Assembly (NCBI GenBank): GCA_021816775.1
Contig: JAKAXA010000002.1
Location: forward strand, 121,113 to 185,112
DNA: 64,000 nt
DNA from: Pseudomonadota bacterium
GTDB lineage: Bacteria; Pseudomonadota; Gammaproteobacteria; Steroidobacterales; Steroidobacteraceae
Direction of reading: 5' to 3'
Part shown: in pieces, positions 40,827 through 62,754 of the stretch
Position numbering within the stretch: position 1 is the stretch's first letter
Layout of the letters: each line of letters starts with the position of its first letter
Made by a program: the position numbers and the translations under genes
The notes under the pieces: model-generated
Databases searched by the model: none
Told to the model about the DNA's origin: nothing
What the model saw: only the letters and a program-made list of their open reading frames with translations

Positions 40827-40840
40827 GGTATTATAATACC
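40827..40840. promoter_or_regulatory. Operator-like perfect palindrome GGTATTATAATACC
   Basis: Read directly from the sequence. About 85 nt upstream of ATG 40926, in the divergent region between the ALDH-pseudogene/paaK unit and the 2-oxoacid oxidoreductase operon. Contains TATAAT on both strands. Confidence 0.6.
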
Positions 40841-40925
40841 ACAATGCGTTGATTGTGCGGCGCGGCGTCTGCCTCGGGCATGCAGGCCGGCCGGCGCGCA
40901 AAGCGCAAGCCCAAGGGCAGCAACG

Positions 40926-41498
40926 ATGTACGAAATCCGATTTCACGGCCGCGGTGGACAGGGCACAGTTCTCGCGGCCACGATCCTTGCCGCCGCAATC
41001 ATCGACGAGGGCAAATTTTCGGTCGCCATCCCCTCCTTCGGCTTCGAGCGGCGCGGCGCGCCGGTGGCGGCCTACCTGCGCATCGACACGCGCGAGATCC
41101 GCCGCATGACGAATATCTATCACCCCGACTGCATCGTCTGCATCGATCCGACCGTGTCCCGGACCGTCGACATTTTCGGGGGTCTCAGCTCCGCGGCCAC
41201 TCTGGTGCAGACCACGGACAAACCGATCGGTGCGCTCGATCTGCCTGCAGCCGTGACCACCGTCGGTCTATGCAATGCGGTTGCGATCGCCCTGAAGCTC
41301 TTCGGACGTGCGATCACGAACACAATCATGCTCGGCGCATTCGCGCGCACCACGGGACAGGTGTCGCTCGAGGCCCTCGAACGGGCGCTGCTCGGGTCGG
41401 AGTTCCGTGACGCCGGCCTCGAGCAGAACATGCGCGCACTGCGATGCGGCTACGAGGAAACCGCCGTCCATCACGTGCAGCGCAAGGCCGCCGCGTGA
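40926..41498 (+). CDS. 2-oxoacid:acceptor oxidoreductase gamma subunit (PadEFGHI-type phenylglyoxylate oxidoreductase)
   Basis: MYEIRFHGRGGQGTVLAATILAAA is a gamma-subunit signature. 190 aa. Confidence 0.85.
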   Translation: MYEIRFHGRGGQGTVLAATILAAAIIDEGKFSVAIPSFGFERRGAPVAAYLRIDTREIRRMTNIYHPDCIVCIDPTVSRTVDIFGGLSSAATLVQTTDKPIGALDLPAAVTTVGLCNAVAIALKLFGRAITNTIMLGAFARTTGQVSLEALERALLGSEFRDAGLEQNMRALRCGYEETAVHHVQRKAAA

Positions 41499-41785
41499 TC
41501 CGCCAGTCGCGCCCGTTTTTCGATGAGCGGCAGATCCCGGACGATCTGTGCCCGATCGCAACGCGGCCGAACCCGATGCTGCCGGGCGATTGGCGCAACC
41601 TACGGCCGGTCGTCGACCGCGCCAAGTGCGTCAAGTGCGCCGTTTGCTGGCTCTATTGTCCTGTGCAATGCGTCGTGGAAAAGCCGGCGTGGTTCGACAT
41701 TGACCTTGCGGCCTGCAAGGGCTGCGGCATCTGCGCCCACGAGTGCCCGCACCACGCGATCAGGATGGTCGAGGAGGGAGGCTGA
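41495..41785 (+). CDS. 2-oxoacid oxidoreductase delta (2x[4Fe-4S] ferredoxin) subunit
   Basis: GTG 41495 overlaps the gamma stop (GTGA). CVKCAVCWLYCP and CKGCGICAHECP. 96 aa. Confidence 0.75.
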   Translation: MIRQSRPFFDERQIPDDLCPIATRPNPMLPGDWRNLRPVVDRAKCVKCAVCWLYCPVQCVVEKPAWFDIDLAACKGCGICAHECPHHAIRMVEEGG

Positions 41786-43011
41786 TGGCCGCGGTCGCAC
41801 CCCTACCCAGCGGCCGAGTGCTCGCTTGCGACGGCAACGAGGCCGCGGCGCTGGCGGTCGCGCTGGCGCGCGTCGACATGGTGGCGGTGTATCCGATCAC
41901 ACCGCAGTCCTCGCTGGTAGAGTACCTGGCGAAATTCATTGCCGACGGTCGACTGCAGGCCGAGCTGGTGGACGCCGAGGGCGAGCACAGCGTGTTGTCG
42001 GTCCTGCAGGGCGCGGCGCTCGCCGGCGCGCGCACCTTTACCGCCACCTCGGGCCCGGGGCTCGCCTTCATGTTCGAGCCGTACCTGCGCACGCCCGGCA
42101 TGCGCCTGCCCATTGTGATGTCGATCGTCACACGCGACACGCTGACGCCACAGTGCGTTTGGGGCGGACATCAGGATGCGATGTCGGTGCGCGAAGCAGG
42201 CTGGGTGCAGATGTACTGCGAGACTGTGCAGGAAGTACTCGATACGACGATCATCGCCTATCGCGTCGCCGAGCAGCGCGACGTCATGCTGCCGGTCAAC
42301 GTCTGCCACGACGGCAACTATCTCTCCTACGGCACCGCACGCATCGAGCTGCCGGAACAGGACGCGGTGGATACGTTCCTCGGCGCGCCTGATGTGAACT
42401 GGCACGCAGCGCTCGACCCGGACCGGCCGATGGCGGTCGACCCACTGACCGGCGGTCCGGCCGGCGCAGGACCCGCAACGTTCGTCCGCTACCGGCGCGG
42501 TCAATGTGCCGGGATGCATCGTGCGCTCGATGCGATCCGCGACGCGCACAGGGAGTGGGCACGACTCACCGGGCGCAATCATGCGCCACTGATCGAGCGC
42601 TATCGGATGGAAGATGCGGAATGTGCGATCGTGACGCTCGGATCGATGACGGGCGCGGCCAAGGATGCCGTTGATGAGGCTCGAGCGGCGGGCCGACGCG
42701 TCGGCCTCGTCAAAGTGAAGACCTTCCGCCCCTTCCCGGCTACCGATGTCGCCGACGCGCTGTGCAAGCTTCGCTCCTTCGGCGTCGTCGATCGCTCCGT
42801 TGACTTTGCGTGGAACTGCGGACCCCTGTACCGAGAAGTCGTGACCGCATTGCAGGGGGGCACGCGTACCGCGACGTCCCAGTCGTTCATCGGAGGGCTC
42901 GCAGGCGCCGACCTCACGGTCGAGCATTTCCAGCGCGTCATCGAGACCGTCGGGCAAATGCGAGAGGTCGCAGGCCCGAGAGACACCGTATGGCTGGACG
43001 CACAGGAGTGA
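41785..43011 (+). CDS. 2-oxoacid oxidoreductase alpha subunit
   Basis: ATG overlaps the delta stop by 1 nt, with GGAGGGAGG upstream. GNEAAALAVALARVDMVAVYPITPQSS. Confidence 0.85.
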   Translation: MAAVAPLPSGRVLACDGNEAAALAVALARVDMVAVYPITPQSSLVEYLAKFIADGRLQAELVDAEGEHSVLSVLQGAALAGARTFTATSGPGLAFMFEPYLRTPGMRLPIVMSIVTRDTLTPQCVWGGHQDAMSVREAGWVQMYCETVQEVLDTTIIAYRVAEQRDVMLPVNVCHDGNYLSYGTARIELPEQDAVDTFLGAPDVNWHAALDPDRPMAVDPLTGGPAGAGPATFVRYRRGQCAGMHRALDAIRDAHREWARLTGRNHAPLIERYRMEDAECAIVTLGSMTGAAKDAVDEARAAGRRVGLVKVKTFRPFPATDVADALCKLRSFGVVDRSVDFAWNCGPLYREVVTALQGGTRTATSQSFIGGLAGADLTVEHFQRVIETVGQMREVAGPRDTVWLDAQE

Positions 43012-43030
43012 CGCCGCCGAGGTTACCGCG

Positions 43031-44284
43031 ATGGAACAAACTCACTATCTGATTGCGGGCGCAAGCCATGCGGCACTTGCGGCCATGCACGCGATCCGGC
43101 TCGTCGACGCCGATGGCTCGCTGACCGTGATCGGACGGGATCGGGAACTGCCGTACTCTCCGACGCTGCTGCCCTACGTGGTTTCAGGACGCACAGACCC
43201 ACAACGCGCGTTCCTGCGCGACCACGAGTACTTCACACGCGCGCGTGCCGCCTACCGCTGCGGACATGCGCTCGTGCGGATTGACCCGGCCAATCGGGTC
43301 GCAGAGCTCGACGACGGCAGCCGGCTGCGTTTCGACAAGCTCCTGCTCGCGACCGGCGCACGGCCGGTGATACCGCCGATTCCGGGGCTCGATGCCGTAC
43401 CGTACCACGTGCTGCGCACCCTCGAAGACGCTCTGAGGCTGCGCGCCCAGCTCCCGCAGACCCGCCGAGCCATCGTGCTCGGCGCCGGGCTGGTCGGCAT
43501 GCATGCGGCGGAAAATCTCTCCAAGGGGGGCGCACGCGTCACGATCGTCGAGCAACAGCAACAGGTTCTGCCCGGTTACTTCGACGCCCAAGCCGCTCGG
43601 ATCATCGCCCGTGCTTTCGAGCGCGCCGACGTGACGATCCGCACCGGCGCCCGGGCCTTGGCAATCGAGGCCGCAGCGGGAGGTGTCACGCTCAGGCTCG
43701 CTGACGGCTCGGCAGTATCGGGCGATCTGCTGTTGATCAGCGCCGGTGTCACCCCGGTGATCGACTTCCTCGCCGACACGCCGATCCAGTGCGATCGCGG
43801 CGTCGTGGTCGATGCGACCATGCAGACCAGTGTCGAGCGCATCTGGGCGGCCGGCGACGTCGCCCAGGCGGCGAGCTTTTACGGCGCACACCCCGTTCTG
43901 AATGGCATTCTGCCGAATGCGGTCGAACAGGGGCGCATTGCCGGCATGGCCATGGCCGGCGACCGCGCCCTCGAAGGCTTCCGCGGGGCCGTGCCGCTCA
44001 ACACCTACAGCTACTACGGACAGCATGCGGTATCAGTCGGAAGCGGCGCGGCTCCACCCGGGGCCGAGGTCGTGGAATCCAGCGATGCCGAGTCGGCGCG
44101 CTACCTCAAGATCATTCTCGACGAAGGAAGGCTGCACGGCATCTTCGCGATCAACACGCCCATCGATCCGGGCGTCATGTGGCAGATGGTTCGGCGCCGC
44201 CTCGACCTGAGCGCGGTCCGCGATCGTTTTCTCGCCCAGCCGCGCACGATGGGTCGACTGTTGATGTCGAGCCTGTTGCGCTGA
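43031..44284 (+). CDS. FAD/NAD(P)-binding pyridine-nucleotide-disulfide-type oxidoreductase subunit (PadE-like)
   Basis: Two dinucleotide folds (YLIAGASHAALAA; AIVLGAGLVGMHAAE). Inserted between the alpha and beta subunit genes, as in five-subunit phenylglyoxylate:NAD+ oxidoreductase. Confidence 0.75.
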   Translation: MEQTHYLIAGASHAALAAMHAIRLVDADGSLTVIGRDRELPYSPTLLPYVVSGRTDPQRAFLRDHEYFTRARAAYRCGHALVRIDPANRVAELDDGSRLRFDKLLLATGARPVIPPIPGLDAVPYHVLRTLEDALRLRAQLPQTRRAIVLGAGLVGMHAAENLSKGGARVTIVEQQQQVLPGYFDAQAARIIARAFERADVTIRTGARALAIEAAAGGVTLRLADGSAVSGDLLLISAGVTPVIDFLADTPIQCDRGVVVDATMQTSVERIWAAGDVAQAASFYGAHPVLNGILPNAVEQGRIAGMAMAGDRALEGFRGAVPLNTYSYYGQHAVSVGSGAAPPGAEVVESSDAESARYLKIILDEGRLHGIFAINTPIDPGVMWQMVRRRLDLSAVRDRFLAQPRTMGRLLMSSLLR

Positions 44285-44294
44285 GGTGCATGCG

Positions 44295-45692
44295 ATGCCT
44301 GCGTACAACACCATCGCCTTCCACGCAGACCGCTGCGATGGCTGCGGGAAATGCATGATCGCCTGCGCGCAAGCGAAGAGCGCGTCGGACTCGCCGCGGC
44401 GCGCCCGTCTTGAGGTGCTCGCCGACGATGCCGGTCGCTTTGAGCTGACGATGTGCCGGCAGTGCGCCGACCCCGAGTGCGTACAGAGCTGTCCGGCGGC
44501 CGCGCTCGCCAAGAACGCCGCAACCGGAGTGATCGAGTGGGATCACGACAAGTGCATCGACTGCCTGCTGTGCACCGTCGGATGCAGCTTTGCCGGCATT
44601 GCCCTCGATGAGGCAGCCGGCCACGTCGTCAAGTGCGACCAGTGCGGTGGCGACCCGGCTTGCGTGCGCGCCTGCAAACCCGGTGCACTCGAGTACCTGA
44701 CCATGGCGCGGATCTACGATGAAGCCGGCTCGCTCGAGGACCTGTTCGTGCAGGGACTTTCCGCATGCCAGGGATGCAACACCGAGCTGATCATGAGGCA
44801 CACACTGCGGCGCGTCGGGCCGGACACCGTGGTCGCGGCGCCGCCCGGTTGCGTGCCGGGAATGGGCGCGGTCGGCTACAACGGTCTCACCGGCACCAAG
44901 GTTCCGGTGTTCCATCCTCTGTTGACCAATACCGCCCCGATGCTCGCCGGACTCAAACGCGTCTACAAGCGCAAGGGCCGACAGGTCACGGCACTGGCGC
45001 TCGCCGGCGATGGGGGAGCGGCGGACGTCGGCTTCCAATCACTCTCGGGTGCGGCGGAGCGCGGCGAGGAAATACTGTTTCTGGTCATCGATAACGAGGG
45101 TTACATGAACACCGGCATGCAACGCTCGAGTTGCACGCCGTACGGGGCCTGGACCACCACGACCCCGGTCGGTCGCGAATCACACGGCAAGAGTCAGGAC
45201 GCGAAGAATCTGCCGCTGCTCATGGTCGGGCACCGCTGTGCCTACGTGGCGACGGCATCGACGGCGTTCATGGCGGACTTCTACCTCAAGCTCGACCGGG
45301 CCCTGCAGGCATCCAAGACGGGTTTCGCCTATCTGCACGTCTATTCGCCATGCACGACCGGCTGGCGCTTCCCGTCCAAGAAGAACATCGAGGTCGCGCG
45401 CAAGGCCGTCGAGAGCAATTTCGTCCTGCTCTGGGAGTACACACCCGCTGCCGGTCTCAGGTTGACGCGCTCCGTGGACGACCCGGTTCCCCTCAGCGAG
45501 TACCTTGTGGCGCTCGGCAAGTACCGGCATCTGACGCCCGAGCAGGTCGCGCACCTGGAGCAGCACATCGCCGAGAACGTGGCGGCGATCAAACGGCACG
45601 CCCTCGCGGAGGCGGCCGCGCCCCCGGCATCTACGCGGCCCGGGATTTCGAGCGCTGGCGCACTGCAAGGTCCCCCAGCGTCGCAAGCGTGA
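44295..45692 (+). CDS. 2-oxoacid oxidoreductase beta (TPP) subunit with N-terminal poly-ferredoxin domain (PadI-like)
   Basis: ATG 44295 (GAGG 8 nt upstream). CDGCGKCMIAC, CRQCADPECVQSCP, CIDCLLCTVGC, CDQCGGDPACVRAC. Then CQGCN, LAGDGGAADVGFQSL and IDNEGYMNTGMQRS. Confidence 0.85.
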   Translation: MPAYNTIAFHADRCDGCGKCMIACAQAKSASDSPRRARLEVLADDAGRFELTMCRQCADPECVQSCPAAALAKNAATGVIEWDHDKCIDCLLCTVGCSFAGIALDEAAGHVVKCDQCGGDPACVRACKPGALEYLTMARIYDEAGSLEDLFVQGLSACQGCNTELIMRHTLRRVGPDTVVAAPPGCVPGMGAVGYNGLTGTKVPVFHPLLTNTAPMLAGLKRVYKRKGRQVTALALAGDGGAADVGFQSLSGAAERGEEILFLVIDNEGYMNTGMQRSSCTPYGAWTTTTPVGRESHGKSQDAKNLPLLMVGHRCAYVATASTAFMADFYLKLDRALQASKTGFAYLHVYSPCTTGWRFPSKKNIEVARKAVESNFVLLWEYTPAAGLRLTRSVDDPVPLSEYLVALGKYRHLTPEQVAHLEQHIAENVAAIKRHALAEAAAPPASTRPGISSAGALQGPPASQA

Positions 45693-46059
45693 TGCAGCCG
45701 AGGGTTGCCCGGATGGTATCGTCGATCTCCTGCAGCACGACCCCGAGGGCGGCCGCTTCGGCGGTGCGTCCACCCAGGTCGCTCGCCTGCAGTGCGAGCG
45801 AGGCACGCGGCTCGAACAATTCTATGATGTCGAGCAGGGTCGTACGGCGTGCGTTGCCGCAGAACTGGAAACCGCCGCCCACTCCCCGCACCGAGCGCAC
45901 GAAACCGGCCCGGCCGAGCACATTCATCACCTTGGCCAGGTGATTGGTCGAGACTGCGTATTTCTCGGCGATATCCGCCACCGTCAGTTGCCGGTTCGGC
46001 TCGGCGATCAGTTCCAGCACGGAGTAGATGGCGAGCTGGCTCGCGACCTGCAGCTTCAT
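45631..46059 (-). CDS. Rrf2-family transcriptional regulator (BadM-like)
   Basis: ORF 45631..46710 trimmed to ATG 46059. 142 aa. wHTH LTVADIAEKYAVSTNHLAKVMNVLGRAGFVRSVRGVGGGF. Lacks the three-Cys cluster motif of IscR-type members. Confidence 0.85.
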   Translation of the reverse strand: MKLQVASQLAIYSVLELIAEPNRQLTVADIAEKYAVSTNHLAKVMNVLGRAGFVRSVRGVGGGFQFCGNARRTTLLDIIELFEPRASLALQASDLGGRTAEAAALGVVLQEIDDTIRATLGCITLATLGDLAVRQRSKSRAA

Positions 46060-46604
46060 TCCAGGTCCTTTTCCAGTTGAATATAGGGGCCTGCCATCAT
46101 GCCCTCGCTGCGGAAGAACACCATCGGCAGCCGGTTGTCGCGCGCGACCATGGTCCGCATCTTGGTCATGCCCGCCTTGCGGAACTCTGCGGCAATCGCG
46201 GCCAACAGCGTCTCGGCAACGCCGCGCAGCCTTGCGTCCGGCTCCACCGACAGCGCATACACCCACCCGCAAGGTTCGGAGCCGAATTCCCAGGCGCGAA
46301 TCTCGCCAACGATGAAGCCGAGCACACGGTCCGATTGCTCTGCCGGAGTGGCGACGAGGAAGATCACCCGGGCCGCACCCGGCACTCCTTGCCGCTGATA
46401 CAACTCGAGCCAGTGGGTGGGCTTTGGCAGCCCCGTCGCCGTGGCATCGATCGCCGCCACGGCTTCGATGTCCGCGCGCCGCGCCGGACGCACCGACAAT
46501 CGCTCCCCTGCCCGACTTGCCTGCGGATCGGCCACCGCTTCCCTGGGAGACGGCCTGGGGCGCTCGCGCGCTTGCGCCGGCACCCGCTTCACCCGGTCCT
46601 TCAC
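46056..46604 (-). CDS. GNAT-family N-acetyltransferase (BadL-like position)
   Basis: GNAT core LSVEPDARLRGVAETLLAAIAAEFRKAGM. 4-nt overlap with the rrf2 start. Start set at GTG 46604 (GGAGGAG just upstream), because the ATG 46742 extension is not protein-like and would contain the palindrome. Confidence 0.7.
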   Translation of the reverse strand: MKDRVKRVPAQARERPRPSPREAVADPQASRAGERLSVRPARRADIEAVAAIDATATGLPKPTHWLELYQRQGVPGAARVIFLVATPAEQSDRVLGFIVGEIRAWEFGSEPCGWVYALSVEPDARLRGVAETLLAAIAAEFRKAGMTKMRTMVARDNRLPMVFFRSEGMMAGPYIQLEKDLE

Positions 46605-46658
46605 GACTCCTCCACACCGTGCTGGATGCGCCGCCCGAGCTCGCAGGCGGCAAACGGA

Positions 46659-46676
46659 TATTATCGTACGATAATA
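46659..46676. promoter_or_regulatory. Operator-like perfect 18-bp palindrome TATTATCGTACGATAATA
   Basis: Read directly from the sequence. About 55 nt upstream of the GNAT-Rrf2 unit. Contains two overlapping GTACGATAATA(C/T) half-sites. Confidence 0.6.
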
Positions 46677-46805
46677 CGCGAAATGCTGGACTGAGTACAA
46701 TCCGGTCCAACGTCGTGAGCAGCCTGCGCCCGCGCGCCGCACGGCCCGGTGAGCCGACCCGAGCGGACGCCGGTGCGCCCGCTCAGCGGCGGGCGCGGCT
46801 CGCCT

Positions 46806-47051
46806 TCAGGAGTGAAGCTGCGCGTACTTCTCGAGCAGCTGCTCGTGCGTCTCGACGAAGTCCGCATTTTGAACGATGCAGTCGGCCGGGCAGACCAGCC
46901 GGCACTGCGGCTCGTCTTCGGCTCCGACGCACTCCGTGCACTTCAGCGCATCGATGATGTAGACCGGCTGGCCGGCGGCGATCGCATTATTGGGGCAGAC
47001 CGGCTCGCACGCATCGCACGCGGTGCAGCCGTCGTTGATCAACAGTGCCAT
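46806..47051 (-). CDS. fdx: 2x[4Fe-4S] ferredoxin (electron donor of benzoyl-CoA reductase)
   Basis: 81 aa. CTACDACEPVCP and CTECVGAEDEPQCRLVCP. Immediately downstream of bcrD. Confidence 0.85.
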   Translation of the reverse strand: MALLINDGCTACDACEPVCPNNAIAAGQPVYIIDALKCTECVGAEDEPQCRLVCPADCIVQNADFVETHEQLLEKYAQLHS

Positions 47052-47075
47052 GTTCGAAGCCTCTGAAATAGGAGC

Positions 47076-47921
47076 TCAGGCCGCGCGGTTCATCTCACCG
47101 CGCGCCACCAATCGATCGAAGCGGTACGCGCCCCACAGCGCCGCACCGATGGCGCCCGCGAACTGCGAATCCGGGTGCGCTCGGACCGTCGCCGCCATGC
47201 CCTTCATGTTGCCGATCTCCTCGTTCAGCGTGGCGATCAGGCCCGCATCGAGGGCGAGGCCGCCTGTCACCATCACCACGCCGCTCCTGACGTCGATCGA
47301 CTTCAGCAGCTTCAACAGGCGGCTCGCCATGGACATGTGGATACCCTTGATGATGTTCGCCGCGGAAATCCCGCGCGAAACCATGTTGATGACATCGGTT
47401 TCGGCAAGCACCGCGCAAATCGACGACACCACCTCCGGATTGTCCGCCTGTGCGGAAAGCGTGCCGATCTCGTCCTGGGCGATGCCGAGATAGCGGGCGA
47501 TGTTCTCCAGGAACTGGCCCGAGCCGGACGCGCACTGGCTCGTCATCTTGTAGTTGAGCACCTTGCCGCGCCCGTCCATCGCGATGGCACGGCCGTGCAG
47601 CGCCCCGATATCGAGCACCGCGCGCGTCTCGGGCTCCAGGTGGATCGCGCCACGCGCATGCGTCGTCATCGAATAGAAGTGCCCGGTGTGAAACGGGACG
47701 CTTTCCCCCTCCCCGGTCGTCGCCACATAGCTGACCTGCCGCTCCGCAAGCCCGGCCTCACCGAGGGTCTGATCAAAGGCGACGCGCGCAAGCTCCAGCG
47801 GGTCGCGTTGACGCACGCGCCACAACGAGCGCGCCAGCCAGTCCACCTTCCCGTCCTCCACGCGCAGCAACACCGCCTTGACGGCCCCGGTGCCGACGTC
47901 GATACCCGCTGTCACAGTCAT
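47076..47921 (-). CDS. bcrD: Benzoyl-CoA reductase (class I, ATP-dependent) delta subunit
   Basis: BcrAD/BadFG ATPase fold: [34 protein letters not shown]. 281 aa. Confidence 0.9.
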
Positions 47922-49258
47922 GCTGTGCCCTCCGCTCGCGCCCCATCCGAATACGCCCGGCGCGCGAATTCCGCTGCACCGAGCGCTCCGGTGTAAATCG
48001 ACTCGGGGTTGATGTTGATCGTGAGATCTCCGTAGTTCTCCTTGAGCACCTTGCGCAGCTCCCGCACCGCCGCTTCGTTCTTCGCCACGCCGCCGGTGAA
48101 GGTGAACTCGTCCGTTACCCCGCCCGAGCGCGAGATGATGGAGATGGCCCGCAGAATGATGGCACGGTGCAGACCGGCGACGATGTCTTCGCGCTTCTCA
48201 CCGAGCGAGAGCCGATCACGTAGCTCCGCCCCCGCGAAAACGGTGCAGGTCGAGTTGATCCGCACCGGGCGCTCGGACTTCATGGCCATGGGCCCGAGCT
48301 CGTGCAGTCCCATGTTCATCTCGTCGGCGATATAACCCAGATACCGCCCGCAGCCCGCGGCGCATCGGTCATTCATCTGGAAATTGGTCACCAGCCCGTC
48401 TGCATCGACCTGAATGCCTTTGGTGTCTTGCCCGCCGATGTCGAGCACGGTGCGGGTCTGCGGGTACATCAGGTGCGCACCGAGCCCGTGGCACAGGATC
48501 TCCGAGCGGATGTGCTCCTTGGAGAATGGCAGGGTCACGCGGCCGTATCCGGTTCCGACCAAGTACGACTCCTCGAGCTCGAGCGCAAGGGAGTCATCAA
48601 TCCTGTCGCGCACGCGCTCGGCGGTGGTCCCGCCGATGCTCCCGTCCTCCGCCAGCAGCCGTGCCAGCGCCCGCCGGAACTTCGCATCCAGAGCGCCGGA
48701 TGGCGCGCGGTTCTCGACCTCGATGATCGCCTTGTCGTAGCTGTTGAGCAGCACCTCGTAGGGAAAGGCGGTTTCGCGCGACACCGCCTCGGCGTGCGCG
48801 TAGAACCGCGCGCCGGCGATGTCCCGGAAGAAGTCCGACTTGCGCTTCCCGCCCGGCGCATAAAGCTCGCCCGCCTCCCGTCTCACGCGTGCGAACGTCT
48901 CCGTGAGCGCCTCGTTGAGCCGCGCCTCCAAGGCGGCCAGCTTCCCGCCCTTCAGCGGCAAGAGGCAGGTATGCTCAAGATCGTCGAGCCGCTCGACGAA
49001 CTGCTCGAGACGAAAGAACCGCTCGAAGCCGGAAAGAAACTCACCGACGCTCTCGCCCAAGTCGCCCGTTTCCGTGAGCGCCCGGCGGCACAGCGTGAAG
49101 CGCGCGTCGACGCGCGCCTCCTCACCGGCGATCCGGGTGGCGATGGCGTAGTTGGAGCGTGAATTCGTGATCCCCCGGCCGAGGACCTGGCACGACTCGT
49201 CCAGGAGCACGGCCTTGGTGGTCGTTGACCCGAGATCGATGCCGACAAAGGTTTTCAT
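47918..49258 (-). CDS. bcrA: Benzoyl-CoA reductase alpha subunit
   Basis: [39 protein letters not shown]. 446 aa. ATGA-type overlap with bcrD. Confidence 0.9.
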
Positions 49259-49269
49259 GGCGAACCCGA

Positions 49270-53652: not shown

Positions 53653-53722
53653 GATGTCGTTACCCGGCGGATCTCACCCATGGATTTCCCCTGTCTCTCG
53701 CGGCTCAATTCCGACTATTAGC

Positions 53723-53734
53723 GTATTACGGTAC
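53723..53734. promoter_or_regulatory. Operator-like motif GTATTACGGTAC (reverse complement GTACCGTAATAC)
   Basis: Read directly from the sequence. About 70 nt upstream of the oah ATG (53652), in the oah/padB divergent region. Confidence 0.45.
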
Positions 53735-53838
53735 CAGAGTACCCGTTTTGCCTGCGTCGGTCAACCGGGCGCAGGGGGCTGCCGGGCGGCTCGGCACGAG
53801 GCCGCTGCCGCATTGACAGGATCCCCGGCGGCTTTTAA

Positions 53839-53851
53839 GGTATTATAGTAC
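53839..53851. promoter_or_regulatory. Operator-like motif GGTATTATAGTAC (reverse complement GTACTATAATACC)
   Basis: Read directly from the sequence. About 25 nt upstream of the padB-like ATG 53876. Contains TATAGT (-10-like) on the plus strand. Its reverse complement is identical to the site at 58626. Confidence 0.55.
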
Positions 53852-53875
53852 GCGATTACGTCAATAGGGCCGTAT

Positions 53876-56608: not shown

Positions 56609-56619
56609 CGCGATACCGC

Positions 56620-57483
56620 TCACCCCTCGGGGCGCGTACCCGGCGCGACCTGCCCGCCCCGCGCCACGGTCACGGGCACGGCGTACGGCTGCTCGTACGA
56701 CCAGCGAATCACCAGCGAGTATTTGAGAATCCAGCCCGAGCCCGCGGCGATCACGGCCGAAGCCGCCACCAGCGGCGCGATGCGGGGGTCGGCCGTCGCG
56801 AGGATCGCCACTGCGATCGCCAGAACGTCCACGGCGCCCGACACGCGGCCGAATCTCGACAACTCCCGCAGTGCGCGGCCCGGCACCGCCATCTTCGGCA
56901 GCGCCCGCCGATAGCTCCAAAATGCGAGCGCTCGCGCCGACAGCAGCGCCGTCAGGAGCACCATCGGCCACAGGGGTGGCGCCATCAGACCCCAAAACCC
57001 GCCGGCGAGCACCCCAAGACCGGCGCCCTCCGCAAGTCCACTCGCCACCAGCAATGGCACGCTGCGCGGATTGCGCCACGCCGGAATACCACGCCCGGCA
57101 TTGAGCATGCGGGCCTGACAATAAACGTAAGCGATGGCGAGCGCTGCCGCGAGCCAGCGCAGTGCGGGCGAATCGAGCCACGCCGCGCCCAGAGCACTGG
57201 CGAACAGCAGCGGCGCCACGGTCGCCTCGCGCGACATCCACGAGGTCGCGCTGTGGCGATAGGCGTTCAGCGCCCGCCACGGCCTGCCGATCTCGAACCA
57301 GACGCACAGCAGGCCCGCGCCGATCAGCGCCGCTCCCAGCAGCCCGAGCACTCGCTCGCCGCAGACGGCCGCATAGACCAGTACGCCCGCTCCCGAGCCG
57401 CCGAGCATGAAGTTACTCGCCGCGCGCCAATCCCAGTAGGGCTGGCGACCGAGGGCGGCGTGTGTCGGAAACGCGCCGCTCAC
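56620..57483 (-). CDS. padD: DmsC/NrfD-like membrane anchor subunit (PadD-like)
   Basis: 287 aa with about 8 hydrophobic helices. 4-nt overlap with the padC-like stop. Confidence 0.65.
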   Translation of the reverse strand: MSGAFPTHAALGRQPYWDWRAASNFMLGGSGAGVLVYAAVCGERVLGLLGAALIGAGLLCVWFEIGRPWRALNAYRHSATSWMSREATVAPLLFASALGAAWLDSPALRWLAAALAIAYVYCQARMLNAGRGIPAWRNPRSVPLLVASGLAEGAGLGVLAGGFWGLMAPPLWPMVLLTALLSARALAFWSYRRALPKMAVPGRALRELSRFGRVSGAVDVLAIAVAILATADPRIAPLVAASAVIAAGSGWILKYSLVIRWSYEQPYAVPVTVARGGQVAPGTRPEG

Positions 57484-58136
57484 GTCCGATCCCCTTCGGC
57501 ATAAAGATAGTACACACCGGGGTCGGTGCCGAGTTCCTCGTGCATGCGAAAGTGCCGGTTCTGCTCGAGGAGCCGCGAGACGTTGCTCGTCGGATCGTCA
57601 CGATCCCCGAAATGCAGCGCGCCGGCGATGCAGGAGTTGACGCAGGCCGGAGTGACCTCCGGATCGACGCCCGGCACACGGCCGGTGTGACGCGCGAGGT
57701 CGATGCGGTCGCTGCAGAAGGTGCACTTGCTCGACACGCCAAGGCGGGCGGAATCGAACTTGTACGCCTCCTCCGGGGTCGGCTCGCTCCCATAGGCGAA
57801 GCTCTGCCGCGTTACCCTGAAGCGCTGGTGATAGGGACAGGCCGTAGCGCAATACGCGCACCCGATGCACAGGTCGTAACGGATCCCGACGCGCCCGTCC
57901 TCGTGCTTGAACGTTGCGCCGGTGGGGCATGCCGCCAGGCACGGAGGATTACCGCAGTGCATGCAGCTGACCGGCAAAAAAGTGCGCCGTACGTCAGGAT
58001 AGCTGCCGGTCTCCAGGTCGAGCACGCGCCGCCACTGCACCCCGGGCGGGGTACCGTTCGCGACCTTGCAGGCGGCCGTGCACGTCTGGCAGCCGATGCA
58101 GCGCCTCAGGTCGACCACCATGACATAACGGGTCAT
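57480..58136 (-). CDS. padC: DmsB-type 4x[4Fe-4S] subunit (PadC-like)
   Basis: ORF trimmed to ATG 58136. MVVDLRRCIGCQTCTAACK, CMHCGNPPCLAACP, CIGCAYCATACP, CTFCSDRI. No Tat signal. Confidence 0.7.
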   Translation of the reverse strand: MTRYVMVVDLRRCIGCQTCTAACKVANGTPPGVQWRRVLDLETGSYPDVRRTFLPVSCMHCGNPPCLAACPTGATFKHEDGRVGIRYDLCIGCAYCATACPYHQRFRVTRQSFAYGSEPTPEEAYKFDSARLGVSSKCTFCSDRIDLARHTGRVPGVDPEVTPACVNSCIAGALHFGDRDDPTSNVSRLLEQNRHFRMHEELGTDPGVYYLYAEGDRT

Positions 58137-58152
58137 CCGAACACCGCGCCTC

Positions 58153-58560
58153 CTACAGACTTGCGGCGGCTGCTTTCTTCGCGGCGACGCGCGCGCGCAG
58201 CTTCTCCACACTCACGACGACCCGCGAGTGCTCGCCCGAGGAGATCGCCTCGGCGCCGTCGCGCGCAGACAGCGCGAATTTCACCGCCCGACCGTTGATT
58301 TCCGTGACCTGCACGGTGATCTCGACCGGCATGCCCGCAAGTGTGGCGCCGGTGTGGGTGATGTTGATCCCGGTGCCCACGGAATCCTCCCCGGCATCGC
58401 AATGCTCGAGGATCAGCTCGCGGCAGGTGATCTCGAAGTCGCGCACGAGCTCCGGAGTGGCGTACACGCGCAACTCCTCGCCCAGAAAGTCGATCGTCCG
58501 CGGGCGATCCACCGTCAGTTTGCGTACCGTGGAAATCCCGGGGACGAGTGTGCTCTTCAT
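58153..58560 (-). CDS. Hot-dog-fold acyl-CoA thioesterase
   Basis: ORF trimmed to ATG 58560 (GGAGGA 7 nt upstream). About 135 aa. TPELVRDFEITCRELILEH...GTGINITHTGATLAGMPV is a pattern of small hot-dog thioesterases (FlK-like, from memory). Confidence 0.6.
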   Translation of the reverse strand: MKSTLVPGISTVRKLTVDRPRTIDFLGEELRVYATPELVRDFEITCRELILEHCDAGEDSVGTGINITHTGATLAGMPVEITVQVTEINGRAVKFALSARDGAEAISSGEHSRVVVSVEKLRARVAAKKAAAASL

Positions 58561-58625
58561 ATCGATTCCTCCCGGCATGGCCCGCGACCGCGCCGCGGGG
58601 CGATACTGCCAGATGACGTATTCTC

Positions 58626-58650
58626 GTACTATAATACCACTATAATACCA
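58626..58650. promoter_or_regulatory. Tandem operator-like motifs GTACTATAATACC / ACTATAATACCA
   Basis: CTATAATACCA occurs twice in direct succession (58629-58639 and 58640-58650). 65-90 nt upstream of the thioesterase-padCD unit. Confidence 0.55.
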
Positions 58651-58895: not shown

Positions 58896-60128
58896 TCAAA
58901 ACGCCGCCAGCCCGGTCTGGGCTCGACCGAGGATCAGCGCATGAATGTCATGGGTGCCTTCGTAAGTGTTGACCGTCTCGAGGTTCTGCGCGTGACGCAT
59001 GACCTGATAGCCGATCTGGATGCCGTTGCCCCCATGCATGTCGCGCGCGAGGCGGGCGATCTCGAGCGCCTTGCCGCAGTTGCTGCGCTTGACGAGCGAG
59101 ACCATCTCGGGGGTCGCCCGCCCGGCATCGAACAGCCGTCCGACCCGCAGCGCCGCCTGCAGCCCGAGAGCGATGTCCGTCTGCATGTCGGCGAGCTTCT
59201 TCTGGAACAATTGCGTCTGCGCGAGCGGCCGCCCGAACTGGCGCCGCTCGAGCCCGTAGGCCCGCGCGCGCTGCCAGCAGTCTTCGGCCGCCCCCATGGC
59301 GCCCCAGGCAATACCGTAACGGGCGCGGTTCAAGCACCCAAACGGACCCTTCAGGCCAGACACCCGCGGCAGCAGAGCGCTCTCGGGCACCTCGACGTCC
59401 TCCATCACGATCTCGCCCGTGACGGAAGCGCGCAGCGACAGCTTGCCTTCGATGCGCGGCGCCCGCAGCCCATTCATCCCCTTCTCGAGCACGAAACCTC
59501 GAACCTCGCCCCCGTGCGCGGCCGACCTGGCCCAGACCACGAACACATCCGCGATCGGGCTGTTGGAGATCCAGGTCTTCACGCCGGTCAGCCGGTAGCC
59601 GCCGCCGGTGCGCTCGGCGCGCGTGCGCATGCCGGCGGGGTCGGAGCCCGCCGCGGGCTCGGTGAGTCCGAAGCACCCGATCCACTCCCCGCTGGCGAGC
59701 TTCGGCAGATAGCGCTGCCGCTGTTCCTCCGAGCCGTAGGCGAAGATCGGGTACATCACGAGCGAGGACTGCACACTCATCATCGAGCGGTAGCCCGAGT
59801 CCACGCGCTCAACCTCCCGCGTCACCAGGCCATAGGCCACATAGGACGCACCCGCCCCGCCGTACTCGACCGGGACGGTGATGCCGAGGAGCCCAAGCGA
59901 GCCGAACTCGCGGAACAGCCCCGGATCGGTGCGCTCGTGCTCATAGGCCTCGGTGATGCGCGGCAGCAGCTGCTCCTGCGCGAAGGCGCGGGTCGCATCG
60001 CGGATCAACCGCTCCTCCTCGGTCAACTGCTCCTCGAGCCGCAGCGGGTCGCTCCAGTCGAACAAGGGGGCCTCGCAAGCGGGGCTCGCGGCCGCAGGTT
60101 GCTCCAGCGGGTCGGTGGCGCCGCTCAA
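58896..60128 (-). CDS. gcdH: Glutaryl-CoA dehydrogenase
   Basis: [67 protein letters not shown]. The TTG start overlaps the korB stop. Confidence 0.85.
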
Positions 60129-60958
60129 AACTCGAACTCCGACTCGAACTGCGCAAGATCATGGACGACCGCAGCGGCTCGCGGTCCATACGGCGCCCGA
60201 TTTCCCCGATAGAGCACGCCGATATTGAAGCCATCGTCCGTCATCAGGCGCCGCGCCGCGCGCGCCGGATCGTCCGTGGCCTCGACCGGCGGCGGATGCA
60301 CACGCTCCTTCCACGCCTTCTGGTCCGGGCGGTATGTGACACAGGGACTCAGCACTTCGACGAACGAAAACCCCGGATGCCGGATCGCATCGGCGATCAG
60401 CGCGCCGGCCTGCTGCGGGTTGCCGGCAAATGCACGGGCCACGTAGTTGGCTCCCGAAGCCAGCGCGATGACCAGAGGGTTGAACGGGCGAAGGCCCGTT
60501 CCCCCTGGCGCGAGCGCCGTGTCGAAATCCGGCTCGGTGGTCGGCGAGGGCTGTCCCTTGGTCATGCCGTAGATGCGGTTGTCCATGACGATGTATGTGA
60601 TATCCACGTTGCGGCGGCACGCGTGGATGAAGTGGTTGCCGCCGATCGAGTAGCCGTCGCCATCGCCGCTTGCCACGACGACCGTCAGGTCGGGCCGCGC
60701 GATCTTCACGCCCGCCGCAACGGCCAACGAGCGGCCATGGATGCCATGAAATCCATAACAGCTCATGTAGGCGGGGATGCGCGATGAGCAGCCGATGCCC
60801 GAGACGAGGACAATCTCCTGCGCCGGTCGCCCGAGCTCGGCCAAGGCACGTGTAAAGGCGAGCAGCACGTGGTAGTCGCCGCAGCCCGGGCACCAGATCG
60901 GCTTGACGTCGGATTTGTAGTCGCCAGGCTTGCAGGCCGGTGTGATGGTGGCGTTCAT
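60125..60958 (-). CDS. korB: 2-oxoglutarate:ferredoxin oxidoreductase beta subunit
   Basis: [11 protein letters not shown] and TPP motif [15 protein letters not shown]. 277 aa. Confidence 0.85.
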
Positions 60959-62688
60959 GCAGCTCTCTCGGCAAGCAATGCGTCGCAGATCTCCGTGGGG
61001 CGGATCGTCAGCGGCCCCGGCCGCTGCAGGACGCGGGTATCGGCCGGCAAGTCATAGTGGGCCCGCAGGTATTTGTGGAACTGCGCTCCGTGCGATTGTT
61101 CGACGACTACGACGCGCCGCACGCCGGCCAGAGCCGCGCGCATCGCGGCCGGCCGCGCCGGCGCGAGCAGCCGTGGGGCGATGAGGCGGGCGCGCACGCC
61201 GCGATTGGCGGCAAGCGTCAGCGCCTCGCGTGCGACGCCGGTCAGCGAGCCCCAGGTCAGAACCGCAGTGTCACCCTCGCCCTCCAGGGTCGCCCACAGC
61301 TGGCCGTAGTCATACTGTTCGAGCTTGTCGCGGCGCTTGTCGAGCTGCGCCGCGTGATCGTGCGCGCTGCTGGTGGGGACGCCGCGCTCAGTGTGCGTCA
61401 GACCATCGGCGGTGTACTGGCCGCCGGCGGTGCCGGGAATCGCCATCGGCGAGACACCGGTGCCCGTGAGAGCGTAGCGCCTGTAGGCGCCGCCGGCAGG
61501 CTCGGCCCGCAAGCGCCTGCCGACGAAAGCAATGTCCGCCGGGCGCGCGATCGCCCCCTGTGCCTGGCCGAGGAATTGGTCCGAGAGCACGATGACCGGA
61601 GTCTGGAGCGCTTCGGCCAGGAACGCTGCCCACTGGGTCGAAAGCAGGCAGTCAGGGATCGTTTGCGGCGCGATGACCAGGTGCGGCGCATCGCCGTGCA
61701 GGCCGTACACGGCGATATTGAGGTCCGCCTGCTCGGACTTGGTCGGGATTCCGGTTGAGGGGCCGCCCCGCATGACGTCGACGACGACGATGGGCACCTC
61801 CGCCGCCGTCGCCAGGCCGATCGACTCGACCATCAGCGAAAGACCCGGGCCCGAGGTCGCGGTGAGGGAGGGTGTGCCGCCATACGAGGCGCCAATGATC
61901 ATGTTCACCGAGGCGAGCTCATCTTCGGCCTGAACGAGCGAGCCGCCGACTTGCGCAAGCTTCGGCGCGAGCCATTCGAGAATCTCGGAGGCGGGAGTGA
62001 TCGGATAGGCGGCCGCGAAGCGAACGCCGCCGCGCAGCGCCCCGAGCCCGACCGCCTCATTGCCCGTGATCAACCAACGCTTGCCGTGATTGGCCTGCGC
62101 AGGAGGCGGTGAGCGCGCGAGCGCAAACCCGGCAACCGCCTCGGCGCCGGCGCGTCTTGCGGCCAGGTTCGCCGCCATTGCCGCTTCGCCCTTGTGGCCA
62201 AAGCGATCATCGATCACGCGCTCGAGAACCTCATCCGGGATGGCGAGCAGCCGTGCCGCGGCGCCGAGCGCAATCATGTTGGCCCGCCACTCGGGGTGGA
62301 GTTTGCACAACTCGGCGCAGCGCAAATCCCCCCGGCGCGCGCTCGAGGGCACCATTGCGGCCGGTGCCGCCCCTCCTGAGGGATCGCCAATGACCAGCGC
62401 ATCGGGATGCAGCGCAATCTCGCTGCCGAAGCGATCGGCATTGTGCCAGTCAATGGCGAGCAGCAGGTCGAAACCGCCGCTGTGGCACTCGACGGGCTGC
62501 GCCGAGAGGCGCAGCAGTGCCGCGGCCTCCCCGCCCCGGATCTGCGGTCCCACGGACCGTGTCAGCAGTCCGTTCCAGCCAGCCCGGCAGAGTGCCTCGA
62601 GCAGCAGTTGGCCGGTGGTCAGCACCCCCGCCCCGCCGCTGCCGAGCAACGCAACGGACACGCTCACCGGGTCATCGGCCATACGCAC
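60955..62688 (-). CDS. korA: 2-oxoglutarate:ferredoxin oxidoreductase alpha (fused gamma-alpha) subunit
   Basis: N-terminal gamma-like LLGSGGAGVLTTGQLL, then alpha AAYPITPASE. 577 aa. 4-nt overlap with korB. Confidence 0.85.
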   Translation of the reverse strand: MRMADDPVSVSVALLGSGGAGVLTTGQLLLEALCRAGWNGLLTRSVGPQIRGGEAAALLRLSAQPVECHSGGFDLLLAIDWHNADRFGSEIALHPDALVIGDPSGGAAPAAMVPSSARRGDLRCAELCKLHPEWRANMIALGAAARLLAIPDEVLERVIDDRFGHKGEAAMAANLAARRAGAEAVAGFALARSPPPAQANHGKRWLITGNEAVGLGALRGGVRFAAAYPITPASEILEWLAPKLAQVGGSLVQAEDELASVNMIIGASYGGTPSLTATSGPGLSLMVESIGLATAAEVPIVVVDVMRGGPSTGIPTKSEQADLNIAVYGLHGDAPHLVIAPQTIPDCLLSTQWAAFLAEALQTPVIVLSDQFLGQAQGAIARPADIAFVGRRLRAEPAGGAYRRYALTGTGVSPMAIPGTAGGQYTADGLTHTERGVPTSSAHDHAAQLDKRRDKLEQYDYGQLWATLEGEGDTAVLTWGSLTGVAREALTLAANRGVRARLIAPRLLAPARPAAMRAALAGVRRVVVVEQSHGAQFHKYLRAHYDLPADTRVLQRPGPLTIRPTEICDALLAERAA

Positions 62689-62738
62689 CCCACAACGAGT
62701 CCGGAGAAATCACCCCAGTTGACCCCATAACTGCATTT

Positions 62739-62754
62739 CAGTACCATAATACTG
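62739..62754. promoter_or_regulatory. Operator-like motif CAGTACCATAATACTG (core GTACCATAATAC)
   Basis: Read directly from the sequence. Lies in the divergent region between the korA ATG (62688, minus) and had (plus). Confidence 0.5.

What the first reader, a model, noticed from the sequence alone, without database searches (positions are those of the whole stretch)
40827..62754. Recurrent AT-rich palindromic operator (GTAYNRTAATAC) at every promoter region of the phenylacetate/benzoyl-CoA island
Seen in sequence, in DNA that is otherwise about two-thirds GC:
- 40827-40840: GGTATTATAATACC, a perfect palindrome between the paaK unit and the PadEFGHI-type operon.
- 46659-46676: TATTATCGTACGATAATA, a perfect 18-bp palindrome upstream of GNAT-rrf2.
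- 53723-53734: GTATTACGGTAC, upstream of oah-dch-bcrCBAD-fdx.
- 53839-53851: GGTATTATAGTAC, about 25 nt before padB.
- 58626-58650: GTACTATAATACC plus a second tandem CTATAATACCA, upstream of thioesterase-padCD.
- 62741-62752: GTACCATAATAC, between korAB-gcdH and had.
- All are variants of the palindrome GTATTA|TAATAC, and most contain TATAAT-, TATAGT- or CATAAT-type -10 hexamers.
- In a manual skim I found no equally good copy inside coding regions or in the 1-37 kb part. The only near match is a weaker GTACGATACTAT at 12178-12189, upstream of dsrC.

Inference: this is one repressor binding over the -10 boxes of six transcription units. The obvious candidate is the Rrf2 protein (45631-46059), whose own operon has the best site.
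Basis: partly seen in the sequence, partly recalled or inferred. Interest (0 to 1): 0.7.

Follow-up and report, generated by a model that had tools for sequence, protein, structure and literature searches.

The report
BadM-type repressor sites in aromatic-degradation island
A conserved 20-36 bp palindrome covers the core promoter of every transcription unit in this anaerobic phenylacetate/benzoyl-CoA gene island and is most likely the binding site of the island's own BadM-like Rrf2 repressor, a known kind of switch with a wider predicted reach than in the one organism where it has been studied.

Summary
The 12-mer GTAYNRTAATAC occurs at six places, all intergenic and all in the island, against 0 expected.

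It is the core of a longer palindrome, GTATTnTnGTACnAnAATAC, with weaker CTAAW/WTTAG elements 8 bp further out. At every site a sigma-70 -10 hexamer lies inside the palindrome.

Three lines of evidence point to the adjacent Rrf2 protein as the binder:
- A matrix built only from the window finds 18 positions of at least 20 bits in 309 kb of loci that carry Rrf2 orthologues, against 0.02 simulated. They lie upstream of GNAT-rrf2, bcr, kor and pad genes.
- A blind metagenome scan for the 20-mer returned 46 GC-rich stretches. Of these, 39 carry benzoyl-CoA or phenylacetate pathway genes or an Rrf2 gene, with the site 30-260 bp before gene starts.
- The same 20-mer sits on the promoters of a second, cysteine-containing Rrf2 subfamily with the same recognition-helix residues.

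The GNAT-Rrf2 pair matches the BadL-BadM arrangement of Rhodopseudomonas palustris (PMC6191541).

I file it as a new member of a known kind, with a larger predicted regulon.

The parts
40820..40847 (.). Operator S1. A 28-bp near-palindrome, CTATTCTG-GTATTATAATAC-CACAATGC, made of two overlapping 20-mers. It lies 78 nt before padE and about 350 nt before the aldh-paaK unit.
   Evidence: 30.6 and 28.9 bits. Conserved in L001 and L020-L023. Candidate promoter CTTGCA-17-TATAAT, with the -10 at 40832-40837.
46658..46677 (.). Operator S2, ATATTATCGTACGATAATAC. It lies 50 nt before the GNAT start codon and is the predicted autoregulatory site of the GNAT-rrf2 operon.
   Evidence: 9 of 10 self-complementary pairs; 33.3 bits. 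Phylogenetic footprint in 7 genomes. Promoter TTGTAC-18-TATTAT on the minus strand, with the -10 at 46676-46671.
53723..53742 (.). Operator S3, GTATTACGGTACCAGAGTAC. It lies 70 nt before oah and controls the oah-dch-bcrCBAD-fdx unit.
   Evidence: 27.4 bits. Minus-strand promoter TTGACC-17-TACTCT, with the -10 at 53741-53736 inside the site. Conserved in L001 and L020.
53840..53859 (.). Operator S4, GTATTATAGTACGCGATTAC. It ends 16 nt before the padB start codon.
   Evidence: 27.8 bits. Plus-strand promoter TTGACA-17-TAAGGT, with the -10 at 53836-53841 abutting the site.
58618..58648 (.). Operator S5, GTATTCTCGTACTATAATAC, followed by an 11-bp tandem copy (ACTATAATACC twice) that gives a second partial site at 58629-58648. 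It lies 39 nt before the thioesterase-padCD unit.
   Evidence: 35.2 bits; partial copy 17.0 bits. Minus-strand promoter GGGACA-18-TATTAT, 58660-58631.
62733..62752 (.). Operator S6, GCATTTCAGTACCATAATAC, between the divergent korAB-gcdH and had units.
   Evidence: 28.1 bits. Two divergent promoters with their -10 on or at the site: TTGACC-17-TACCAT (62719-62747, plus strand) and TTGACA-17-TACAGT (62779-62751, minus strand). The same had/korA placement recurs in 12 + 12 metagenome hits.
45631..46059 (-). Rrf2-family regulator of 142 aa, the predicted repressor. It has no conserved cysteine ligands.
   Evidence: TIGR00738, E=5.8e-26, above the curated cut-off. PF02082, E=6e-23. Alignments A1 and A3.
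46056..46607 (-). GNAT acetyltransferase of 182 aa. Its stop codon overlaps the rrf2 start codon (ATGA). It occupies the BadL position.
   Evidence: PF00583, E=5e-9. Called as a 182-aa gene in L020-L023. Conserved upstream of rrf2 in L001, L003-L006, L008, L009, L013, L024 and L026.
40926..45692 (+). padEFGHI, encoding phenylglyoxylate dehydrogenase. Predicted target of S1.
   Evidence: NF045762, NF045764, NF045765 and NF045766, all above their cut-offs.
46806..53652 (-). oah-dch-bcrCBAD-fdx, encoding benzoyl-CoA reductase, the ring-hydrolysis enzymes and ferredoxin. Predicted target of S3.
   Evidence: TIGR03200, TIGR03189, TIGR02263, TIGR02260, TIGR02259 and TIGR02261. fdx ORF.
53876..56608 (+). 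padB-like molybdopterin subunit (phenylacetyl-CoA:acceptor oxidoreductase type). Predicted target of S4.
   Evidence: Molybdopterin oxidoreductase matches. PF00384 and PF01568.
56620..58578 (-). thioesterase-padC-padD unit. Predicted target of S5.
   Evidence: PF22636 FlK-type thioesterase and DmsC/NrfD-like anchor. Fe-S subunit.
58896..62688 (-). korA-korB-gcdH unit, encoding 2-oxoglutarate:ferredoxin oxidoreductase and glutaryl-CoA dehydrogenase-like proteins. Predicted target of S6.
   Evidence: gcdH. Translations. tblastn orthologues.
62834..63916 (+). had, encoding 6-hydroxycyclohex-1-ene-1-carbonyl-CoA dehydrogenase. Predicted target of S6.
   Evidence: TIGR03201, E=2e-162.
37431..40471 (-). 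Divergent aldehyde dehydrogenase-like gene plus paaK (phenylacetate-CoA ligase). A possible but uncertain target of S1.
   Evidence: TIGR02155, E=1e-216. PF00171, 169 bits. ORF intact compared with L020. There is no separate site in 40471-40820.

Best explanation
The six sites are operators for the Rrf2-family protein encoded at 45631-46059, a cluster-less regulator of the BadM type.

Proposed mechanism:
- A dimer, or possibly two dimers, binds a palindrome built from (G/C)TA(T/C) tetramers spaced 8 bp apart. The core is GTATTnTnGTACnAnAATAC, with outer CTAAW and WTTAG elements.
- Each palindrome overlaps the -10 hexamer and the likely transcription start, so bound protein would exclude RNA polymerase.
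- The predicted result is coordinate repression of padEFGHI, oah-dch-bcrCBAD-fdx, padB, thioesterase-padCD, korAB-gcdH, had and the regulator's own GNAT-rrf2 operon.
- By analogy with BadL/BadM, the co-transcribed GNAT would make an acetylated aromatic effector that releases the repressor. Because the GNAT is itself behind an operator, induction would reinforce itself.

Shown here: the motif, its statistics, its promoter placement, its conservation and its genomic association with Rrf2 and the pathway genes.

Inferred only: binding, repression and the effector.
For: - Enrichment in the window: 6 places against 0 expected. The 20-bp matrix scores 27-35 bits at the sites and at most 7.9 bits elsewhere.
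- Promoter overlap at all sites.
- Footprint: the invariant columns upstream of GNAT-rrf2 in 7 genomes cluster on the palindrome.
- Independent validation: the window-only matrix gives 18 positions of at least 20 bits in 309 kb of Rrf2-orthologue loci, against 0.02 simulated. All of them are next to rrf2, GNAT, bcr, kor or pad genes.
- Different gene orders share the site: alphaproteobacterial MAGs have it between bcrC and a korAB-rubrerythrin-GNAT-rrf2 operon. L006 has it between hcrCA-like genes and GNAT-rrf2.
- Reciprocal test: 39 of the 46 GC-rich metagenome stretches found by the motif alone carry pathway or Rrf2 genes.
- Second subfamily: the motif also lies on promoters of a second Rrf2 subfamily that shares residues S37, H40, L41, K43, V44, R58, G59, G62 and G63.
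- Flanks that the search pattern did not select are conserved.
- No rival regulator is conserved with the motif.
- Precedent: BadL-BadM in R. palustris (PMC6191541).
Against: - There is no binding or expression data.
- The R. palustris BadM sequence and its published binding fragment could not be retrieved, so orthology and operator identity with the characterised system are untested.
- Two betaproteobacterial loci have strong sites between korA and had without an Rrf2 gene within 10 kb.
- GNAT-Rrf2 pairs outside aromatic clusters (L016, L026) have only weak, 4-tetramer versions of the site.
- The coexistence of 4-tetramer (S1) and 5-tetramer layouts is hard to reconcile with a single rigid dimer.
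Confidence: 0.78

Rival explanations
1. The operator is real, but it is bound by another Rrf2 paralogue encoded elsewhere, either instead of or together with the local protein. An example would be the cysteine-containing, FrdX/Hcp-linked type, which uses the same 20-mer. The island would then respond to a redox or nitrosative signal rather than an aromatic one.
For: - The exact 20-mer lies on the promoters of Fe-S-type Rrf2 genes that share the recognition helix.
- L147 and L148 have the site without a nearby Rrf2 gene.
Against: - In 17 proteobacterial loci the cluster-less Rrf2 is physically linked to the sites, and its own operon carries one.
- No Fe-S-type Rrf2 was found in the window or in these loci.
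Confidence: 0.1
2. The motif is bound by an unrelated transcription factor, such as a GntR- or TetR-type protein that recognises GT..AC palindromes. The Rrf2 association would then be only genomic hitch-hiking.
For: - GT-N-TA-N-AC-like cores are typical of GntR-family operators (my own knowledge).
- A TetR gene lies at 32757-33476.
Against: - The TetR, AraC and LysR proteins of the window have no homologue in any of the 26 related loci.
- The annotated loci L006 and L024 contain no other regulator.
- The motif sits directly on Rrf2 promoters in seven unrelated contexts.
Confidence: 0.05
3. No dedicated factor binds. The repeats are simply strong, AT-rich promoter elements (-10-like boxes) shared by co-expressed operons.
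For: TATAAT, TATTAT and TACCAT hexamers are embedded in the sites.
Against: - The invariant GTAC centre, the two-fold symmetry and the outer CTAAW/WTTAG elements are not promoter features.
- The -10 occupies different parts of the palindrome at different sites.
- Other intergenic regions of the window lack the motif.
Confidence: 0.03

Closest known systems
BadM (Rrf2 repressor) with BadL (GNAT) of Rhodopseudomonas palustris
   Same: - An Rrf2-family regulator encoded next to a GNAT acetyltransferase and to benzoyl-CoA reductase genes.
- BadM represses the reductase operon by binding its promoter, and BadL-made acetamidobenzoates release it (PMC6191541).
- BadL-BadM pairs are also reported in Magnetospirillum magneticum and Geobacter metallireducens (PMC6191541).
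   Different: - Here the predicted regulon spans six promoter regions. It includes the peripheral anaerobic phenylacetate genes (pad), korAB-gcdH, had and the regulator's own operon.
- In R. palustris only badDEFG(AB) responds strongly to badM deletion (PMC13345007).
- The host is an uncultured, gamma-like proteobacterium.
- An operator consensus is defined here. I found none in the papers I could read.
- The effector is unknown.
Fe-S cluster Rrf2 repressors (NsrR, IscR, RsrR)
   Same: - Same protein family. The nearest solved structures are RsrR 6HSD (E=5e-9) and IscR 4HF1/4HF2.
- AT-rich palindromic operators that overlap promoters.
- The recognition helix S-x-N-H-L-A-K-V resembles that of NsrR (my own knowledge of the E. 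coli NsrR sequence).
   Different: - The three cysteine ligands are absent from this clade.
- The arm spacing differs from the NsrR 11-1-11 site and the IscR type 1 and 2 sites (my own knowledge).
BzdR/BoxR (Azoarcus/Aromatoleum) and BamVW/BgeR (Geobacter), regulators of benzoyl-CoA genes
   Same: They are pathway-specific control of the central anaerobic benzoyl-CoA route (PMC6678401).
   Different: - They belong to unrelated protein families and use different operators.
- No BzdR/BoxR site was found before the Thauera-type had-oah-dch-bcrCBAD operon (PMC6449761). That is the operon type controlled here.

Membership tests
BadM/BadL-type regulatory pair | The regulator has an Rrf2 winged-helix domain | tested here: met
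   TIGR00738 scores 90.9 bits (cut-off 73.3) and PF02082 scores 81.8 bits (cut-off 30).
BadM/BadL-type regulatory pair | A GNAT acetyltransferase gene is adjacent and co-transcribed | tested here: met
   PF00583 GNAT at 46056-46607 with an ATGA stop/start overlap with rrf2. The pairing is conserved in many loci.
BadM/BadL-type regulatory pair | Genomic linkage to benzoyl-CoA reductase genes | tested here: met
   bcrCBAD is adjacent in the window and in L001-L003, L005, L006, L009-L012, L014 and L024.
BadM/BadL-type regulatory pair | The protein binds and represses the reductase operon promoter | not testable with these tools
   There is only a predicted operator over the -10 of the oah-dch-bcrCBAD promoter.
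BadM/BadL-type regulatory pair | Released by acetamidobenzoates made by the GNAT | not testable with these tools
   This rests only on analogy with PMC6191541.
BadM/BadL-type regulatory pair | Sequence orthology to R. palustris BadM, and the same operator in the badC-badD fragment | not tested
   No R. palustris sequence could be obtained.
Fe-S cluster-sensing Rrf2 regulators (IscR/NsrR/RsrR) | Three conserved cluster-ligand cysteines after the wing | tested here: not met
   No conserved cysteine appears in A1. In A3 the C-x6-8-C-x4-5-C motif is present in the FrdX/Hcp-linked group but absent from the window protein, L011 and L024.
GntR-family regulators | GntR winged-helix domain above the Pfam threshold | tested here: not met
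   PF00392 scores 21.9 bits, below the cut-off of 27. This is only a weak resemblance of the helix-turn-helix.

The most novel reading that the evidence does not exclude
One operator 'language', phased GTAY tetramers every 8 bp, is shared by two Rrf2 subfamilies with the same recognition helix. One is a cluster-less, GNAT-partnered BadM type that controls anaerobic aromatic catabolism in many uncultured alpha-, beta- and gamma-like proteobacteria. The other is a cysteine-containing type that controls frdX-hcp.

This would imply that BadM-type regulators arose from an Fe-S redox or NO sensor by loss of the cluster. Where both proteins coexist, nitrosative or redox stress and aromatic degradation could cross-regulate through the same sites.

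The 28-bp and 36-bp layouts would then reflect binding of two dimers rather than one.
Probability: 0.25. Interest if true: 0.6.

Novelty: new member of a known kind. Interest (0 to 1): 0.45.

Why it matters
Few regulators of the central anaerobic benzoyl-CoA pathway are known (BadM, BzdR, BamVW/BgeR; PMC6678401). None has been assigned to the Thauera-type had-oah-dch-bcrCBAD/korAB clusters outside R. palustris (PMC6449761).

This finding provides three things:
- a concrete operator consensus;
- a candidate repressor;
- a predicted regulon that couples a peripheral route (anaerobic phenylacetate) to the central and lower pathway.

The same site appears widespread in environmental bacteria, so it can be tested directly by gel shift and reporter assays. 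It can also be used to annotate anaerobic aromatic-degradation regulons in metagenomes.

Tried and rejected
- **Published BadM site:** I tried to read it in Hirakawa 2015 (PMC4475878), Peres and Harwood 2006 (PMC1698244) and Carmona 2009 (PMC2650882). None is held.
- **Reaching R. palustris BadM:** a profile search and a plasmid tblastn produced no named or cultured homologue.
- **Tying the betaproteobacterial had/korA sites to Thauera:** a Had search found only uncultured relatives of the Casimicrobiaceae or Betaproteobacteria type.
- **Strict sigma-70 scan:** it found promoters only at S5 and S6. A relaxed scan that requires TAnnnT was needed for the other sites.
- **FNR/AadR-type boxes (TTGAT-N4-ATCAA):** 14 matches against 10 expected, none in the island promoters. 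Rejected.
- **Site at 12178 before dsrC:** 7.9 bits. Rejected as chance.
- **Fur-box reading of ATTATC/GATAAT in S2:** rejected, because those positions (8 and 13) vary among sites while the GTAC centre is invariant.
- **Terminator-like hit at 53730-53743:** this is the S3 palindrome itself, and no gene ends there.
- **Apparent frameshift in the ALDH-like ORF:** I first suspected one, but it is intact compared with L020.


Full report
**1. Observation**

The pattern GTAYNRTAATAC has exact matches at six places: 40828, 46666, 53723, 53840, 58626 and 62741. None appeared in 100 dinucleotide-preserving shuffles.

Allowing two mismatches gives 24 matches against 6.9 expected. The excess consists of overlapping readings of the same six places.

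The window is about 65% G+C throughout, so these AT-rich blocks stand out.

**2. Gene map**

| Gene or unit | Coordinates | Strand |
|---|---|---|
| paaK | 37431-38777 | - |
| divergent ALDH-like gene | 38717-40471 | - |
| padEFGHI | 40926-45692 | + |
| Rrf2 | 45631-46059 | - |
| GNAT | 46056-46607 | - |
| fdx | 46806-47051 | - |
| bcrD, A, B, C, dch, oah | 47076-53652 | - |
| padB | 53876-56608 | + |
| padD, padC, thioesterase | 56620-58578 | - |
| gcdH, korB, korA | 58896-62688 | - |
| had | 62834-63916 | + |

The GNAT stop codon overlaps the rrf2 start codon (ATGA). Every promoter-bearing intergenic region of this island holds one site, and the oah/padB divergent region holds two.

**3. The real unit is longer than 12 bp**

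Read in register, each site is a 20-bp palindrome with (G/C)TA(T/C) tetramers 8 bp apart. The consensus is GTATTnTnGTACnAnAATAC.

- A symmetric matrix built from the seven window 20-mers scores them at 27-35 bits.
- The next unrelated position in the 64 kb, at 12178, scores 7.9 bits.
- S1 is different. Its tetramers are CTAT, GTAT, ATAC and ATGC. It has an even number of tetramers, two overlapping 20-mers and a 28-bp palindrome.
- S5 carries an 11-bp tandem duplication that adds a partial second site.

Sites from other genomes show weaker outer elements, CTAAW and WTTAG, 8 bp beyond each arm. In one search these flanks were not part of the search pattern, so their conservation is independent evidence for an operator of about 34-36 bp.

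**4. Position relative to promoters**

A -10 hexamer lies in or at the edge of the palindrome at every site.

- *Near-consensus -35 with a TAnnnT -10*:
  - S3, minus strand: TTGACC-17-TACTCT
  - S4, plus strand: TTGACA-17-TAAGGT
  - S6, plus strand: TTGACC-17-TACCAT
  - S6, minus strand: TTGACA-17-TACAGT
- *Near-consensus -10 with a weaker -35*:
  - S1, plus strand: CTTGCA-17-TATAAT
  - S2, minus strand: TTGTAC-18-TATTAT
  - S5, minus strand: GGGACA-18-TATTAT

The spacer between each site and its start codon is 16-81 nt. This is the layout of a repressor that occludes the core promoter. These are consensus matches only. No transcription start has been mapped.

**5. Comparative evidence**

*5a. 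Loci fetched through the Rrf2 protein.*
- These loci are MAGs labelled Proteobacteria, Gammaproteobacteria, Steroidobacteraceae, Rhodospirillaceae, Stellaceae and Alphaproteobacteria.
- The Rrf2 orthologue (46-96% identity) is linked to bcrCBAD, korAB or padBCD in most of them.
- The window-only matrix finds 18 positions of at least 20 bits in these 309 kb, against 0.02 in Markov simulations.
- All of these positions lie upstream of GNAT-rrf2, or between bcrC/dch and korA, or at the sites homologous to S1-S4.

*5b. Phylogenetic footprint.* I aligned the GNAT-upstream region from seven genomes. The invariant columns cluster on GTATTATnGTACnnnAATA inside otherwise diverged DNA. A TTGnnn box lies 18 nt before TATTAT.

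*5c. Different gene orders keep the site.*
- In alphaproteobacterial contigs the site lies between bcrCBAD and a korAB-rubrerythrin-GNAT-rrf2 operon.
- In L006 it lies between genes resembling 4-hydroxybenzoyl-CoA reductase (a 2Fe-2S subunit and a molybdopterin subunit) and GNAT-rrf2.

*5d. Reciprocal test.*
- A metagenome scan for GTATTATNGTACNNNAATAC, which ignores gene content, stopped at 120 stretches.
- Of the 46 stretches with at least 55% G+C, 39 carry benzoyl-CoA or phenylacetate pathway genes or an Rrf2 gene.
- In those the site lies 30-260 bp before had (12), korA (12), rrf2 (7), oah (4), bcrC (4), the thioesterase (2), padB, gcdH or GNAT.
- Only 4 of the 74 AT-richer stretches carry such genes. 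In that DNA the pattern is expected by chance.
- The matrix finds 14 further sites in the same loci.

**6. Which protein binds?**

The local Rrf2 is the only regulator in the island.
- The other regulators of the window are LysR at 19654-20895 and 21003-21893, AraC at 31551-32519 and TetR at 32757-33476.
- None of these has a homologue in any of the 26 related loci.

Seven of the metagenome hits sit directly on the promoters of more distant Rrf2 genes (32-47% identity), for example TTGACA-17-TATTAT in L109. These genes are followed by a FrdX-like ferredoxin-domain protein, and in L034 by a hybrid-cluster protein.

- That subfamily has the three cysteines typical of Fe-S Rrf2 sensors. The window clade has none.
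- Both subfamilies share S37, H40, L41, K43 and V44 in the recognition helix, and R58, G59, G62 and G63 in the wing.

The same DNA word on the promoters of two Rrf2 subfamilies with the same DNA-reading residues is the strongest indirect evidence that an Rrf2 protein reads this motif.

**7. Relation to known systems**

The GNAT-Rrf2 pair next to benzoyl-CoA reductase genes is the BadL-BadM arrangement. In R. palustris, BadM represses badDEFGAB, and BadL-made acetamidobenzoates lower its affinity for that promoter (PMC6191541). The authors used this same genomic-context criterion to call BadL-BadM pairs in Magnetospirillum and Geobacter.

- In R. palustris TIE-1, deleting badM derepresses essentially only badDEFG(AB) (PMC13345007).
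- The regulon predicted here is broader. It covers central, lower and peripheral (phenylacetate) steps plus autoregulation.
- I could not obtain the R. palustris sequences or the paper that characterised BadM binding. Orthology and operator identity with the characterised protein therefore remain untested.
- In the papers I could read, no operator consensus for BadM is given, and no regulator is assigned to Thauera-type bcr clusters (PMC6678401, PMC6449761).

**8. Open points**

- Two betaproteobacterial MAG loci have 34-bit and 26-bit sites between korA and had, but no Rrf2 gene within 10 kb.
- GNAT-Rrf2 pairs outside aromatic clusters (L016, L026) have only a weak 4-tetramer site, CTAA-N4-GTAr-N4-ATrC-N4-TTAG, just before rrf2.
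- The same element occurs in a 28-bp (even) layout and a 36-bp (odd) layout. This suggests more than one dimer per operator, or alternative binding registers, and needs footprinting to resolve.
- Control of aldh-paaK by S1 is uncertain.

**9. Verdict**

It is a new member of a known kind (a BadM-type Rrf2 repressor with a GNAT partner), with a defined operator and an unusually broad predicted regulon.

It is useful and testable, but it is not a new mechanism.

Noticed in passing
window 1-1412 and 2716-4127: A perfect 1412-bp direct repeat (100% identity) flanks a unique segment of about 1.3 kb. Each copy holds a 317-aa ORF with no Pfam hit (315-1268 and 3030-3983). It could be an insertion-sequence-like structure or an assembly artefact.
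   Followed up: partly
window 12483-19870: Two divergently arranged molybdopterin oxidoreductases have a pyrogallol-hydroxytransferase-like (AhtL-like) N-terminal domain: 13345-15861 (minus strand) and 15852-19025 (plus strand). Each has a Fer4_11 beta subunit. They may represent another anaerobic aromatic hydroxylase or transhydroxylase system. No operator site is present there.
   Followed up: no
window 38717-40471 (-): The aldehyde dehydrogenase-like ORF between S1 and paaK is intact and 98% identical to its copy in L020. It scores only 169 bits against PF00171, compared with 479 bits for the ALDH at 34586-35995. It is therefore a strongly divergent, possibly degenerate, enzyme.
   Followed up: partly
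L034, L047, L056, L071, L109, L129, L137 (metagenome loci): A second Rrf2 subfamily, with a C-x6-8-C-x4-5-C motif, has the same 20-mer on its own promoter. It is followed by a FrdX-like Fer4 protein, and in L034 by the hybrid-cluster protein Hcp. It shares the recognition-helix residues of the BadM-like clade.
   Followed up: partly
L147 9913-9932; L148 3200-3219: Betaproteobacterial MAG loci (Casimicrobiaceae-like Had protein) carry strong sites between korA and had, but no Rrf2 gene within 10 kb. L148 has a lone GNAT gene at 13198-13797.
   Followed up: partly
window 53723-53859: The two operators of the oah/padB divergent region are 117 bp apart centre to centre, about 11 helical turns. L002 has two sites 159 bp apart. 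This spacing would allow looping between bound proteins.
   Followed up: no
window 5099-12130: There is a DsrC-like gene (11816-12130) next to genes for NrfD-like, Fer4 and nitrate-reductase-gamma-like membrane-complex proteins and a class V aminotransferase. This is a DsrMKJOP-like sulfur-metabolism neighbourhood unrelated to the operator.
   Followed up: no
L006 3912-9347: In the MAG group L003-L008, GNAT-rrf2 is divergent from xanthine-dehydrogenase-family genes resembling 4-hydroxybenzoyl-CoA reductase. A second GNAT gene (3912-4661) and a hemerythrin-domain protein lie nearby.
   Followed up: no
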